DNA from: Escherichia coli
Lineage (GTDB): Bacteria; Pseudomonadota; Gammaproteobacteria; Enterobacterales; Enterobacteriaceae
Assembly (NCBI RefSeq): GCF_003334785.1
Contig: NZ_QOWV01000001.1
Direction: 5' to 3' (one strand)
DNA: 64,000 nucleotides
Notes under the pieces: generated by a model
Databases searched by the model: none
The model's input: the letters and a program-made list of their open reading frames with translations, nothing else
Told to the model about the DNA's origin: nothing
Made by a program: the position numbers and the translations under genes
Shown here: positions 15,934 to 20,357 of the stretch, piece by piece
Numbering within the stretch: position 1 is the first letter of the stretch
How the letters are laid out: each line of letters begins with the position of its first letter

Positions 15934-17082
15934 ATGTCCACGTATACCCAGCCTGTCATGCTTTTGCTGTCTGGCCTGCTTTTGTTGACTCTGGCGATTG
16001 CGGTGTTAAATACACTCGTGCCGCTTTGGCTCGCCCAGGAACACATGTCCACATGGCAGGTAGGCGTTGTCAGCTCATCCTATTTTACCGGCAACCTTGT
16101 CGGTACATTGCTGACAGGGTATGTCATTAAGCGCATTGGCTTTAACCGCAGCTATTATCTGGCCTCCTTCATTTTTGCCGCTGGCTGTGCCGGCCTTGGC
16201 CTGATGATTGGATTCTGGAGCTGGTTGGCTTGGCGTTTTGTCGCGGGCGTCGGCTGTGCCATGATTTGGGTGGTTGTTGAGAGCGCGCTGATGTGCAGTG
16301 GGACGTCACGTAACCGTGGGCGTTTGCTTGCTGCGTATATGATGGTTTATTACGTGGGAACGTTTTTAGGCCAGTTACTGGTCAGCAAAGTTTCAACCGA
16401 GCTGATGTCCGTATTGCCGTGGGTTACAGGTTTGACGTTGGCAGGGATCTTACCGCTGTTGTTTACGCGTGTGCTGAATCAGCAGGCTGAAAACCATGAT
16501 TCGACGTCAATTACGTCAATGCTAAAACTCCGTCAGGCGCGGCTTGGCGTGAATGGCTGCATTATCTCAGGAATCGTTCTGGGATCTCTATATGGCCTGA
16601 TGCCGCTGTACCTCAATCACAAAGGGGTGAGCAATGCCAGCATTGGTTTCTGGATGGCGGTACTGGTCAGTGCGGGTATCCTTGGACAATGGCCGATTGG
16701 ACGTCTGGCGGATAAGTTTGGTCGACTGCTGGTGTTGCGTGTTCAGGTCTTTGTCGTCATTCTCGGCAGTATCGCGATGCTTAGCCAGGCGGCGATGGCC
16801 CCAGCGTTATTCATCCTCGGTGCCGCTGGCTTTACGCTATATCCGGTGGCGATGGCATGGGCTTGCGAGAAAGTTGAACATCATCAACTGGTGGCGATGA
16901 ACCAGGCCTTACTGTTGAGCTATACTGTGGGAAGTCTGCTTGGCCCGTCATTTACCGCTATGCTAATGCAGAATTTCTCCGATAATTTATTGTTTATCAT
17001 GATCGCCAGCGTATCGTTTATCTATTTGCTGATGCTGCTGCGCAACGCCGGTCATACGCCGAAACCCGTTGCTCACGTGTAA
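15934..17082 (+). CDS. ycaD: MFS transporter YcaD
   Basis: 382 aa, about 12 predicted hydrophobic segments, typical MFS organisation. Confidence 0.92.
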
Positions 17083-17091
17083 ATGAATTCA

Positions 17092-17132
17092 AGCAGAGTG
17101 TGAACTTACTGTTTCACACTCTGCTTTTTTGT
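17092..17132 (+). terminator. Intrinsic terminator of ycaD
   Basis: agcagagtgtgaa-cttactgt-ttcacactctgct (13-bp stem) followed by TTTTTTGTTTC. Lies inside the spurious N-extension of the track ORF 17100..18722. Confidence 0.85.
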
Positions 17133-17291
17133 TTCTTCTATCTGACTTGCTTTATTCCAAATTTTATTCGTTTAAAAATAAAATGTGCAGCAGGTTATAA
17201 TTTTGCATTTCGCTATTTCCGCACTTCTTATTTGCCGCGCATAATCCCTCGTTTTACAGATGCCCCTTTAATTTTGGCGAAGGATTTGTCT

Positions 17292-18722
17292 ATGGCTGGG
17301 AATGTTCAGGAAAAACAGTTGCGATGGTACAACATTGCGCTGATGTCTTTTATCACTGTCTGGGGTTTTGGCAACGTTGTTAATAACTATGCCAACCAGG
17401 GGCTGGTGGTTGTTTTTTCATGGGTGTTTATCTTTGCACTCTATTTCACACCTTATGCGCTAATTGTTGGTCAGTTAGGCTCGACCTTCAAAGATGGGAA
17501 GGGCGGGGTCAGTACCTGGATTAAACACACGATGGGACCCGGACTGGCTTATCTCGCCGCGTGGACCTACTGGGTGGTGCATATTCCCTATCTGGCACAA
17601 AAACCCCAGGCAATTCTGATTGCGCTCGGTTGGGCGATGAAAGGCGACGGTTCGCTAATCAAAGAATATTCAGTCGTAGCGTTACAGGGGTTAACGCTGG
17701 TGCTGTTTATCTTCTTTATGTGGGTTGCTTCACGCGGTATGAAATCGCTGAAAATCGTCGGTTCTGTGGCAGGGATTGCTATGTTTGTTATGTCGCTCCT
17801 GTATGTGGCGATGGCGGTAACCGCGCCTGCAATTACTGAAGTGCATATTGCGACCACAAACATTACCTGGGAAACGTTCATTCCTCATATCGACTTTACC
17901 TACATTACCACTATTTCAATGCTGGTTTTCGCGGTTGGCGGAGCAGAGAAGATTTCTCCTTACGTTAATCAAACGCGCAACCCAGGAAAAGAATTTCCAA
18001 AAGGGATGTTATGCCTGGCGGTGATGGTTGCGGTTTGTGCCATTCTGGGCTCGCTGGCGATGGGGATGATGTTTGATTCGCGTAATATCCCGGATGACTT
18101 AATGACCAACGGTCAGTATTACGCCTTTCAGAAGCTGGGCGAGTATTACAACATGGGTAATACTTTAATGGTGATTTACGCCATTGCGAATACCCTGGGA
18201 CAAGTAGCGGCGCTGGTATTCTCGATTGATGCCCCGCTTAAAGTGCTATTAGGTGATGCTGACAGCAAATATATTCCAGCCAGTTTATGTCGTACCAACG
18301 CTTCTGGTACGCCCGTTAATGGCTATTTTCTGACCCTGGTACTGGTGGCGATTCTGATTATGCTGCCGACTCTCGGCATTGGTGATATGAACAATCTCTA
18401 TAAATGGCTGTTGAACCTTAATTCGGTAGTGATGCCGCTGCGTTATTTATGGGTATTTGTTGCATTTATTGCAGTCGTTCGCTTGGCGCAGAAATATAAA
18501 CCAGAATATGTCTTTATTCGTAATAAGCCTCTGGCAATGACCGTCGGGATTTGGTGTTTTGCCTTTACCGCCTTTGCCTGTTTGACGGGGATCTTCCCGA
18601 AAATGGAAGCCTTCACTGCAGAGTGGACCTTCCAGTTGGCGCTGAATGTTGCAACGCCGTTTGTGCTGGTAGGATTAGGACTGATATTCCCGCTGCTGGC
18701 GCGTAAAGCGAATAGTAAATAA
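17292..18722 (+). CDS. ycaM: Putative amino acid/APC-family permease YcaM
   Basis: 476 aa from ATG 17292 (MAGNVQEKQLRWYNIALMSF...). The track start at 17100 would read through the ycaD terminator and an AT-rich promoter-like region. Confidence 0.9.
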   Translation: MAGNVQEKQLRWYNIALMSFITVWGFGNVVNNYANQGLVVVFSWVFIFALYFTPYALIVGQLGSTFKDGKGGVSTWIKHTMGPGLAYLAAWTYWVVHIPYLAQKPQAILIALGWAMKGDGSLIKEYSVVALQGLTLVLFIFFMWVASRGMKSLKIVGSVAGIAMFVMSLLYVAMAVTAPAITEVHIATTNITWETFIPHIDFTYITTISMLVFAVGGAEKISPYVNQTRNPGKEFPKGMLCLAVMVAVCAILGSLAMGMMFDSRNIPDDLMTNGQYYAFQKLGEYYNMGNTLMVIYAIANTLGQVAALVFSIDAPLKVLLGDADSKYIPASLCRTNASGTPVNGYFLTLVLVAILIMLPTLGIGDMNNLYKWLLNLNSVVMPLRYLWVFVAFIAVVRLAQKYKPEYVFIRNKPLAMTVGIWCFAFTAFACLTGIFPKMEAFTAEWTFQLALNVATPFVLVGLGLIFPLLARKANSK

Positions 18723-19631
18723 TTATTGTGGTCGGTGACGCTGACTCTGGCAGATCTGACCCGTTTTTACATAATCGAGAAATGCGCGCAAGCCGCAGGA
18801 CATATACTGGCGGTTTGGATAATAGATCTGGAAGCCTGGACGCTCTGTGCTCCAGTCTTCCAGTACACATTCTAAACGACCAGTATCAAGGTACTCCTTG
18901 ATCTGTTCATAGAGCAGATACCCGATACCAGCACCCATCAAAACGGCCTCCAGTTCAGCATCAACATCATCCAGAATGATATTTCCTGCGACAGCAATTT
19001 CCAGCTCCTTTGCAAATTGCCAGTGGAAAGGTTTGCCGCTGGGATAACGAAAAACAACACATTGATGATTAAGCAGATCATGAGGATGGCGGGGTTTGCC
19101 ATATCTTGCAAAGTACTCTGGCGTTGCTGCTACACATAATTTCACTGGCGGGCCGATCGCCACGCTGATCATATCTTTTTCGACGATGCAACTAAGTCGA
19201 ACGCCAGCGTCAAAGCCCTGTTGGACGATATCGACAAGAGAGTCGTCAGTTGTGAGCTCGACTTTAATATCAGGATATTCACGTGTGAAACCAACCAGTA
19301 AAGACATTAAAAATATACGTGCAGCTACCCGGGCGGCATTGATTTTGAGCGTTCCTGTCGGTGTCAGACGAAAATCATTCATCTCATCTAACATGATCTG
19401 AATTTCGTCGAAAGCTGGGCGCAATCGTTCATAGAGATTAGAACCCGCTTCCGTTAACGATACGCTTCGGGTTGTCCGATTGAATAAGCGAATTTTAAGA
19501 CGTTGTTCCAGTGTTTTAATACTATGGCTAATGGCGGACGAGGATAAGCCTAACTCATCGCCCGCTGCACGAAAGCTTTGATTACGGGCCACGGCAAAGA
19601 AAGTGGCAAAGTCAGACATATTCATCCGCAT
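18723..19631 (-). CDS. ycaN: LysR-type transcriptional regulator YcaN
   Basis: 302 aa; N-terminal HTH (FRAAGDELGLSSSAISHSIKTLEQRL) and LysR substrate-binding domain. Stop codon abuts the ycaM stop with zero spacer. Confidence 0.92.
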   Translation of the reverse strand: MRMNMSDFATFFAVARNQSFRAAGDELGLSSSAISHSIKTLEQRLKIRLFNRTTRSVSLTEAGSNLYERLRPAFDEIQIMLDEMNDFRLTPTGTLKINAARVAARIFLMSLLVGFTREYPDIKVELTTDDSLVDIVQQGFDAGVRLSCIVEKDMISVAIGPPVKLCVAATPEYFARYGKPRHPHDLLNHQCVVFRYPSGKPFHWQFAKELEIAVAGNIILDDVDAELEAVLMGAGIGYLLYEQIKEYLDTGRLECVLEDWSTERPGFQIYYPNRQYMSCGLRAFLDYVKTGQICQSQRHRPQ

Positions 19632-19654
19632 TAGTGAAAATCCTTCATTAACTC

Positions 19655-19680
19655 ATCCTGAATCATCACGTTTACAGGAT
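19655..19680. promoter_or_regulatory. Inverted repeat ATCCTG-N14-CAGGAT in ycaN/ycaK divergent promoter region (candidate LysR-type operator)
   Basis: Perfect 6-bp arms read from sequence, 24 bp upstream of the ycaN start and 51 bp upstream of the ycaK start. LysR-type regulators typically bind dyads in the divergent region. Function is inferred, not known to me. Confidence 0.35.
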
Positions 19681-19730
19681 TATGCCGCCTGCGTAAAGTG
19701 CGCTCCAGAACTTAACGTGGAGGTAAAATT

Positions 19731-20321
19731 ATGCAGTCTGAACGTATTTATTTGGTATGGGCCCATCCTCGTCATGATTCATTGACCGCACATATTGCTG
19801 ATGCGATCCATCAGCGGGCAATGGAGCGGAAAATACAGGTGACGGAACTCGATTTATATCGGCGTAATTTCAACCCAGTGATGACGCCGGAAGATGAACC
19901 AGACTGGAAGAATATGGATAAACGTTATTCTCCAGAGGTTCATCAGCTTTATTCAGAGCTGCTTGAACATGACACGTTAGTGGTGGTTTTTCCTCTCTGG
20001 TGGTACAGCTTCCCGGCAATGCTAAAAGGATATATTGACAGAGTATGGAATAATGGGCTGGCTTATGGAGATGGGCACAAATTACCATTCAATAAAGTTC
20101 GTTGGGTGGCGCTGGTTGGAGGAGACAAAGAATCATTTGTCCAGATGGGCTGGGAAAAAAATATAAGCGATTATTTAAAAAATATGTGCAGTTATCTTGG
20201 TATTGAAGATGCCGATGTCACTTTCTTGTGTAATACAGTGGTATTCGATGGGGAAGAACTTCACGCGAGCTATTATCAGTCGTTATTATCTCAGGTACGG
20301 GATATGGTAGATGCACTATAA
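19731..20321 (+). CDS. ycaK: Flavodoxin-like NAD(P)H dehydrogenase (quinone)-family protein YcaK
   Basis: 196 aa MQSERIYLVWAHPRHDSLTAHIADAI...; flavodoxin_2-like fold. Confidence 0.9.
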   Translation: MQSERIYLVWAHPRHDSLTAHIADAIHQRAMERKIQVTELDLYRRNFNPVMTPEDEPDWKNMDKRYSPEVHQLYSELLEHDTLVVVFPLWWYSFPAMLKGYIDRVWNNGLAYGDGHKLPFNKVRWVALVGGDKESFVQMGWEKNISDYLKNMCSYLGIEDADVTFLCNTVVFDGEELHASYYQSLLSQVRDMVDAL

Positions 20322-20357
20322 GATGTGTTAAAAACGCTGTAGCAGAATGAAGCGCGG

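What the first reader, a model, noticed from the sequence alone, without database searches (positions are those of the whole stretch)
19632..19730. Candidate operator dyad in the ycaN-ycaK divergent region of an uncharacterised LysR module
The 99-bp divergent spacer contains a perfect ATCCTG-N14-CAGGAT inverted repeat (19655-19680). YcaN is a LysR-type regulator divergently transcribed from ycaK and convergent with the permease ycaM, the classic layout for a LysR regulator controlling its neighbour. The ligand and regulon are, to my knowledge, not established, so this is the least-characterised small module in the window.
Basis: inference. Interest (0 to 1): 0.45.

Follow-up and report, generated by a model that had tools for sequence, protein, structure and literature searches.

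The report
ycaN-ycaK control region: wrong dyad
The flagged inverted repeat exists but is no better than chance and is not conserved; the likely binding site of the LysR regulator YcaN is an ordinary, strongly conserved TGA-N7-TCA box 20 bases to its left, in front of a quinone-reductase-like gene.

Summary
The window is E. coli ycaD-ycaM-ycaN<>ycaK-pflA. The 99-bp spacer (19632-19730) and the perfect ATCCTG-N14-CAGGAT repeat (19655-60 / 19675-80) are exactly as described. Such a repeat is not unusual: 26% of shuffled spacers and 34% of all 99-nt windows of the 64 kb contain one.

In 19 non-redundant orthologous ycaN<>ycaK spacers the repeat is perfect only in E. coli and its nearest named relative. 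The median is 2 of 6 complementary pairs.

Other spacer elements are invariant or nearly so:
- a TGA-N7-TCA (T-N11-A) LysR box at 19635-19647;
- a sigma-70 -35/-10 pair for ycaK (TTTACA 19671-76, TAAAGT 19694-99).

The box centre lies about -65 from the predicted ycaK start, the usual position of a LysR recognition site. ycaN<>ycaK is a conserved two-gene module with a 97-102 bp spacer. ycaM is not part of it.

Published YcaN ChIP-exo shows no peak here, and the ligand is still unknown.

Verdict: an ordinary LysR divergent control region. The specific dyad is coincidental, but the module-level idea is sound. Low-to-moderate interest.

The parts
18723..19631 (-). ycaN, LysR-type transcriptional regulator (302 aa)
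   Evidence: ORF. LysR-family NCBIfam matches (best YafC, AaeR, GcvA, all below their equivalog cut-offs). Orthologs at 61-85% identity carry HTH_1 + LysR_substrate domains.
19731..20321 (+). ycaK, NAD(P)H oxidoreductase of the Flavodoxin_2 / NQO1-NQO2-like family (196 aa); the likely regulated target
   Evidence: NCBIfam PRK09739 equivalog, 354 bits against a cut-off of 162. PDB relatives are quinone reductases. It is divergent from the ycaN ortholog in every locus examined.
19632..19730 (.). 99-bp divergent spacer
   Evidence: Spacer length is 97-102 bp in 14 orthologs and 99 bp in L091 and L092.
19655..19680 (.). It is real but at chance level and not conserved as a dyad. It lies at about -51 to -26 of the predicted ycaK promoter, where a LysR activation site would be expected.
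19635..19647 (.). TGAA-N5-TTCA (core TGA-N7-TCA = T-N11-A): proposed YcaN recognition site, centred at 19641, about -65 from the predicted ycaK start and 4-16 nt upstream of the ycaN start codon
   Evidence: TGA and TCA are invariant and complementary in 19/19 spacers while the 7 central bases vary. The box is at the same offset in 40 of 80 YcaN-like loci across Proteobacteria. It is the only strong PWM match in the 64 kb: 33.7 bits against 10.8 for the next.
19641..19645 (-). Probable ycaN Shine-Dalgarno (AAGGA on the - strand), inside the variable centre of the box
   Evidence: Read from the sequence. Inference.
19654..19663 (.). Second conserved block (consensus CATCTCAAAT; E. coli CATCCTGAAT), at about -47. 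Candidate part of an activation site.
   Evidence: Column conservation. The role is inferred.
19671..19676 (+). Predicted -35 of the ycaK promoter (TTTACA)
   Evidence: Promoter scan. T19671, T19672 and C19675 are invariant in 19/19.
19694..19699 (+). Predicted -10 of the ycaK promoter (TAAAGT, 17-nt spacer). The implied transcription start is near 19706.
   Evidence: Promoter scan. T19694, A19695 and T19699 are invariant in 19/19. The start position is inferred, with no experimental start site.
19679..19684 (-). Candidate -10 of the ycaN promoter (CATAAT on the - strand; GATAAT in most orthologs; TGAGATAAT in many distant homologs).
   Evidence: Conservation of A19682 (19/19), T19683 (18/19) and A19679 (17/19). 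GGATTATC(T/A)CA recurs in distant loci. Inference: no -35 was found, and the promoter scan did not call it.
19719..19723 (+). ycaK Shine-Dalgarno GGAGG
   Evidence: Read from the sequence.

Best explanation
This is a conventional LysR-type divergent control region.

YcaN most likely recognises the conserved TGA-N7-TCA (T-N11-A) box at 19635-19647. This box sits about 65 bp upstream of the predicted ycaK transcription start and inside the ycaN 5' leader.

From there a YcaN oligomer would reach a weaker, poorly symmetric activation site over about -50 to -25. From this site it would control the ycaK sigma-70 promoter (TTTACA-17-TAAAGT).

Binding would also hinder the overlapping ycaN promoter and leader, giving autoregulation. 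The effector is unknown. By analogy it may be a quinone, carbonyl or other electrophile linked to the reductase's substrate.

The ATCCTG-N14-CAGGAT symmetry itself is a coincidence of the E. coli lineage. Its right arm is made of the end of the ycaK -35 and part of the probable ycaN -10.

Shown: the sequence features, their conservation and the synteny. Inferred: binding by YcaN, the transcription starts, the direction of regulation and the effector.
For: - The module ycaN<>ycaK, with a 97-102 bp spacer, is conserved in Enterobacterales, Pseudomonas and Janthinobacterium despite different flanks.
- Alignment anchored on the ycaN start codon is gap-free for about 70 nt. TGA (19635-37) and TCA (19645-47) are invariant in 19/19 while the centre varies. 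T19671, T19672 and C19675, and T19694, A19695 and T19699, are invariant; these are the key -35 and -10 positions. Columns 19701-19709 are essentially unconserved.
- The promoter scan finds TTTACA-17-TAAAGT on the + strand. The box centre 19641 is then about -65.
- The same box is at the same offset in 40 of 80 YcaN-like loci.
- The recognition-helix residues S32, A33, S35 and H36 are invariant in the protein alignment.
- The LysR model (a recognition site with T-N11-A, plus an activation site near -35) is described in the papers read.
- CrgA, a full-length PDB relative of YcaN (E 3e-29), activates a divergent quinone-reductase gene, mdaB, through T-N11-A sites and represses itself.
- There is a single strong PWM site in the 64 kb.
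Against: - There is no direct binding evidence. Published ChIP-exo with YcaN-8myc in glucose M9 lists six weak peaks (signal/noise 1.06-4.45). None is at ycaN/ycaK and none carries the box.
- The published ycaN-deletion RNA-seq text reports changes in ycaC, ycaD and focA, not ycaK.
- The centre of the box doubles as the ycaN ribosome-binding site, so part of the block's conservation could be translational.
- No experimental transcription start was available.
- No clear second (activation) box could be defined from sequence.
- The ycaK promoter matches 9 of 12 consensus positions, so YcaN could be a repressor rather than an activator.
Confidence: 0.68

Rival explanations
1. One reading: ATCCTG-N14-CAGGAT is itself the YcaN operator, with each arm contacted by one subunit.
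For: The repeat is perfect. It lies between the divergent genes, over the predicted -35 region. It is retained in the three closest relatives: 6/6 in P. corydidari, and 5/6 in the 85%-identical metagenomic ortholog and in P. cyperus.
Against: - It is at chance level.
- It is not conserved as a dyad in 15 of 19 spacers, and there are no compensatory changes. C19675 is invariant while its partner is G in only 4 of 19.
- In the close relatives the 14-nt gap is as conserved as the arms, so nothing singles out the arms.
- The arm centres are about 20 bp apart, which does not fit the one-turn T-N11-A geometry of a LysR dimer.
- The conservation of the right arm is explained by promoter elements.
Confidence: 0.07
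2. The dyad region is part of the low-affinity activation site of YcaN. It is functionally bound, but its symmetry is irrelevant.
For: It spans about -51 to -26 of the predicted promoter, where LysR activation sites lie. Partially conserved blocks sit at 19654-63 and 19677-84. Activation sites are known to be poorly symmetric and hard to predict.
Against: No T-N11-A-like repeat of the box could be found there. The conserved bases can be explained by the two core promoters alone. This reading is compatible with, and included in, the best explanation.
Confidence: 0.45
3. The conserved 19632-19652 block is conserved for translation or leader function of ycaN mRNA, or for another regulator such as Nac, rather than as a YcaN site.
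For: The centre encodes the ycaN Shine-Dalgarno. The paper read says ycaK is a predicted Nac target. No YcaN ChIP-exo peak was found here.
Against: - The invariant bases are the symmetric arms TGA/TCA, not the Shine-Dalgarno centre, which varies (AATCC, AATCT, TTTTC, GTTAT, GCATC).
- The box follows the regulator gene into unrelated genomes and into paralogs paired with different target genes. That argues for the co-inherited regulator as the binder.
- A 3-4 bp RNA stem would be too weak to matter (-2 kcal/mol as DNA).
Confidence: 0.12

Closest known systems
CrgA / mdaB of Neisseria meningitidis (LysR regulator divergent from an NADPH quinone oxidoreductase gene)
   Same: YcaN matches CrgA (PDB 3hhg) over its full length by sequence (E 3.4e-29). 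In both, a LysR gene is divergent from a flavin quinone-reductase-type gene. T-N11-A motifs lie in a short intergenic region that overlaps the regulator's -10 and the target's -35. CrgA autorepresses and activates mdaB, and its direct effector is unidentified.
   Different: YcaK belongs to the Flavodoxin_2 / PRK09739 family and did not match a named MdaB model in the searches. CrgA has two footprinted 30-bp sites and forms octamers. Here only one clear box is seen, and the oligomeric state and binding are untested.
Classical LysR recognition-site / activation-site architecture (BenM, CbnR, DntR, OccR)
   Same: There is a symmetric T-N11-A recognition site near -65, a weaker site towards -35, and divergent overlapping promoters. 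Here TGA-N7-TCA is centred about 65 bp upstream of the predicted ycaK start.
   Different: The arm sequence is TGA/TCA rather than, for example, the ATAC/GTAT of BenM. The activation sites are not identifiable from sequence. Nothing has been tested biochemically.
YcaN as described in E. coli systems studies (Gao et al. 2021, PMC8464067; Rodionova et al. 2022, PMC9068703)
   Same: It is the same protein. It is classed as a LysR regulator of adjacent y-genes, with unknown role and ligand.
   Different: Those studies name PycaC and PycaD as targets and list six weak ChIP-exo peaks elsewhere. Neither reports a site in the ycaN-ycaK spacer or the TGA-N7-TCA box. The comparative evidence here points to ycaK as the conserved partner.

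Membership tests
LysR-type regulator recognition site (proposed box 19635-19647) | T-N11-A motif with dyad symmetry around the T and the A | tested here: met
   TGAA-N5-TTCA. T19635/A19647, G19636/C19646 and A19637/T19645 are complementary in 19/19 orthologs. Motif definition.
LysR-type regulator recognition site (proposed box 19635-19647) | Position near -65 of the regulated promoter, in a divergent region shared with the regulator gene | tested here: inconclusive
   This is met only relative to a predicted promoter (TTTACA-17-TAAAGT), whose key bases are invariant. No experimental start site was available.
LysR-type regulator recognition site (proposed box 19635-19647) | Conservation with the regulator across orthologs | tested here: met
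   Present in 19/19 orthologous spacers and at the same offset in 40/80 related loci.
LysR-type regulator recognition site (proposed box 19635-19647) | Physical binding by the cognate regulator | not testable with these tools
   Published ChIP-exo in glucose M9 shows no peak at this locus, and all six peaks are weak.
LysR-type regulator recognition site (proposed box 19635-19647) | Second, weaker activation site close to -35 | tested here: inconclusive
   Conserved blocks exist at 19654-63 and 19677-84, but no recognisable second box. They overlap core promoter elements.
   The dyad is 26 bp overall and the arm centres are 20 bp apart, against the geometry described.
   6/6 in 2 of 19 spacers, median 2/6, and the inner pair complementary in 4/19.
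   Probability of at least one such repeat is 0.26 in shuffles and 0.34 in real 99-nt windows.
YcaK = NAD(P)H oxidoreductase PRK09739 (Flavodoxin_2, NQO-like) | Score above the curated equivalog cut-off | tested here: met
   354.3 bits against a cut-off of 162. PDB relatives are quinone reductases.

The most novel reading that the evidence does not exclude
YcaN-like regulators form a widespread proteobacterial LysR subfamily. They carry a fixed-geometry TGA-N7-TCA box 3 nt from their own start codon. Each is wired to one divergent NAD(P)H-dependent reductase: YcaK-type quinone reductase, PRK06180-type SDR, or Ahr-like aldehyde reductase. On this reading they are one conserved quinone/carbonyl-electrophile sensing switch with a shared, still unknown class of effector. 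In E. coli it is a dispensable module of about 1.6 kb, present in 61% of complete genomes. A much less likely extra possibility is that the E. coli-lineage ATCCTG/CAGGAT symmetry is a newly evolved site for a second factor.
Probability: 0.3. Interest if true: 0.4.

Novelty: new member of a known kind. Interest (0 to 1): 0.22.

Why it matters
YcaN is one of the E. coli LysR regulators that still has no ligand, no defined site and no agreed target. The comparative result gives a precise, cheap experiment: EMSA or a footprint on 19620-19710, with point mutations in TGA/TCA compared with mutations in the ATCCTG/CAGGAT arms. It also redirects attention from ycaC/ycaD and the weak ChIP-exo peaks to ycaK as the conserved partner. 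Finally, it suggests a screen of quinones, aldehydes and other electrophiles as inducers. The expected outcome is a textbook LysR circuit, so the gain is annotation rather than a new principle.

Tried and rejected
- **Chance test of the dyad:** not significant.
- **Hairpin or RNA role:** the structure is weak. The dyad lies upstream of the predicted ycaK start, and its right arm lies upstream of the candidate ycaN start. The only Rfam match is a sub-threshold snoRNA hit.
- **Variation within E. coli:** uninformative, since the spacer is 99% or more identical in 3277 of 3328 genomes.
- **Genome-contig scan with the YcaN alignment:** Only 4 close orthologs came back, so the closer ones were fetched one at a time. 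L092 turned out to be E. coli itself and was excluded as a duplicate.
- **Second T-N11-A box or activation site by eye and by column conservation:** candidates such as ATT-N11-AAT (19647-19663) and T19683-N11-A19695 are either asymmetric or explained by promoter elements. None was adopted.
- **PWM scan for extra YcaN boxes near ycaC, ycaD or focA within the 64 kb:** none found.
- **Box in the six published ChIP-exo peaks:** the first fetch used the wrong coordinate version, because the paper uses U00096.2. After correcting the coordinates, none of the peaks holds the box or the dyad.
- **Supplementary DEG tables of the ycaN-deletion RNA-seq:** not held, so the ycaK expression change could not be read.

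Full report
**What is in the window**

ORF listing and similarity searches identify this stretch as E. coli:
- ycaD: 15934-17082, + strand
- ycaM: about 17292-18722, + strand
- ycaN: 18723-19631, - strand, 302 aa, LysR family
- ycaK: 19731-20321, + strand, 196 aa
- pflA and pflB

YcaK scores 354 bits on the NCBIfam equivalog PRK09739, 'NAD(P)H oxidoreductase' (cut-off 162). Its solved relatives are NQO1/NQO2-type quinone reductases. YcaN matches only generic LysR models, all below their equivalog cut-offs. Its best solved relatives are an uncharacterised regulator (3mz1), CrgA of Neisseria meningitidis (3hhg) and AphB.

**Checking the observation**

The spacer 19632-19730 is 99 bp. ATCCTG (19655-60) and CAGGAT (19675-80) are perfectly complementary with a 14-nt gap, so the coordinates and sequence are right.

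The repeat is not unusual:
- 26% of 5000 dinucleotide-preserving shuffles of the spacer contain at least one perfect 6-nt inverted repeat with a gap of 20 nt or less.
- 34% of all 99-nt windows of this 64-kb sequence do too.
- As a hairpin it is weak, and nothing in Rfam matches.

**Comparative test**

I collected YcaN orthologs at 61-85% protein identity. They came from Pseudocitrobacter (2), a Budviciaceae isolate, Hafnia, Shimwellia, Serratia, Pectobacterium, Leminorella, Pantoea, an AP025685 genome, Rahnella, Cedecea (2), Enterobacter sp. Ag1 and one metagenomic contig. I added three more distant homologs (52-56%) from Pseudomonas and Janthinobacterium that also have a YcaK neighbour.

In every case a Flavodoxin_2 gene is divergent from the regulator. 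The spacer measured 97-102 bp in the orthologous loci, although all other neighbours differ. ycaM is present in none of them.

Within E. coli the locus has three forms:
- the full ycaM-ycaN-ycaK (3324 of 5426 complete genomes);
- ycaM plus a 111-bp ycaN remnant, with no spacer or ycaK (O157:H7);
- ycaD directly next to pflA.

So ycaN<>ycaK is the conserved unit, which supports the idea that the regulator controls its divergent neighbour. ycaM does not belong to it.

Anchored on the ycaN start codon, the spacers align without gaps for about 70 nt.
- 6/6 positions only in E. coli and P. corydidari;
- 5/6 in two others;
- a median of 2/6.

The commonest form is ATCTCA...CAGAAT. C19675 is invariant while its partner is G in only 4 of 19, and there are no compensating changes. 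In the close relatives that keep the arms, the 14-nt gap is equally conserved, so nothing singles out the arms.

**What is conserved instead**

Four features stand out:
- TGA (19635-37) and TCA (19645-47) are invariant and mutually complementary in 19/19, around a variable 7-nt centre. This is a T-N11-A LysR box.
- T19671, T19672 and C19675 are invariant, as are T19694, A19695 and T19699. These are the diagnostic positions of a TTTACA-17-TAAAGT sigma-70 promoter facing ycaK. The promoter scan calls it independently.
- ATTAT (19679-83) reads (G/C)ATAAT on the ycaN strand and is a candidate ycaN -10.
- A block at 19654-63 is moderately conserved.

Columns just downstream of the predicted -10 (19701-19709) carry almost no information, so the conservation is not simply slow divergence.

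With a start about 7 nt after the -10 (about 19706), the box centre (19641) falls at about -65. That is the usual position of a LysR recognition site.

A PWM of the box finds one strong site in the whole 64 kb: 33.7 bits, against 10.8 for the next.

**Reach of the motif**

In the 80 YcaN-like loci returned by the genome scan (41-69% identity; alpha-, beta- and gamma-proteobacteria), 40 carry TGA-N7-TCA at exactly the same offset, 3 nt from the regulator's start codon.

Of 25 such loci examined, about 22 are divergent from a short-chain dehydrogenase. Two of those were confirmed as PRK06180-type oxidoreductases. One further locus is divergent from an Ahr-like aldehyde reductase.

The box therefore travels with the regulator rather than with a particular target gene. 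This argues that the regulator is what binds it. The theme of single NAD(P)H-dependent reductase partners hints at quinone, carbonyl or other electrophile effectors (inference).

The residues of the recognition helix (S32, A33, S35, H36) are invariant among the orthologs.

**Literature**
- YcaN-8myc ChIP-exo in glucose M9 gave six weak peaks (cspE, ynjB, yobF, ung, rho, yihQ; signal/noise 1.06-4.45) and none at ycaN/ycaK (PMC8464067).
- After correcting for the older coordinate version, none of those peaks contains the box or the dyad. Sites at yfiD, yihP and yobF also appear in the lists of other factors.
- The ycaN-deletion RNA-seq paper reports ycaC down and ycaD and focA up, gives the role as 'unknown', and does not report ycaK (PMC9068703).
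- A 2024 review still lists the ligand as unknown (PMC11495319).

So there is no direct evidence for binding in this spacer. The absence of a ChIP peak under one uninduced condition, with a weakly expressed native-locus tag, is weak negative evidence.

**Mechanism proposed (confidence about 0.68)**

YcaN binds the TGA-N7-TCA box and contacts a weaker site over about -50 to -25. From there it controls the ycaK promoter in response to an unidentified effector. It also limits its own expression, because the box lies in the ycaN leader and the two core promoters interdigitate.

The closest characterised analogue is CrgA/mdaB. There a LysR regulator, a full-length sequence relative of YcaN, activates a divergent quinone-reductase gene and represses itself through T-N11-A sites.

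The direction of regulation is uncertain. The ycaK promoter already matches 9 of 12 consensus positions, so repression is possible.

**Verdict**

What is really there is an ordinary LysR control region whose probable recognition site lies 20 nt to the left of the flagged repeat. This is a new member of a known kind. It is useful for annotating an orphan E. coli regulator and would not surprise a specialist.

Noticed in passing
window 17292-20321; L093, L094: E. coli has three forms of this locus. The full ycaM-ycaN-ycaK is in 3324 of 5426 complete genomes. O157:H7-type strains have ycaM plus a 111-bp ycaN remnant, with the spacer and ycaK deleted. SYNB1934 (Nissle-type) has ycaD directly next to pflA. 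The ycaN-ycaK pair therefore behaves as a dispensable indel unit.
   Followed up: partly
window 18700-20350: Several E. coli strains carry IS1, IS5, IS903 or ISKpn26 insertions that split ycaN or ycaK. Many truncated YcaN clusters exist in E. coli and Shigella, which suggests frequent inactivation.
   Followed up: no
window 18722/18723: The stop codons of the convergent genes ycaM and ycaN abut with no intergenic base. The pair is listed as a convergent 'excludon' (overlapping transcription) in PMC12288877.
   Followed up: partly
window 18723-19631 (YcaN residues about 206-207 and the C-terminus): E. coli YcaN lacks three residues after F206; 14 of the 15 aligned orthologs have them, and Pseudocitrobacter corydidari (P0018) shares the same gap. 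E. coli YcaN also has its own C-terminal tail.
   Followed up: no
L006-L078 (loci): 40 of 80 YcaN-like LysR loci from alpha-, beta- and gamma-proteobacteria carry TGA-N7-TCA 3 nt from the regulator's start codon. Many also have a second motif, GGATTATC(T/A)CA, about 40 nt in; on the regulator strand this reads as an extended -10, TGAGATAAT. About 22 of 25 examined are divergent from an SDR oxidoreductase.
   Followed up: partly
window 19679-19696 and 19728-19740: Direct repeat ATTATGCCGCCTG / ATTATGCAGTCTG; the second copy holds the ycaK start codon. The first copy opens a 4-codon mini-ORF (ATG CCG CCT GCG TAA) that lies upstream of the predicted ycaK start. Probably chance.
   Followed up: no
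PMC8464067, supplementary Dataset S4: The ChIP-exo coordinates are in the older U00096.2 numbering (offsets about +778, +1977 and +1981 to NC_000913.3). One row in the YfeD list labels a site at 939919 as 'ycaN', although that coordinate is several kb from ycaN.
   Followed up: partly
window 17100-18722: The mechanical ORF for ycaM starts at GTG 17100 (540 aa). The annotated ycaM is 476 aa, starting at ATG 17292.
   Followed up: no
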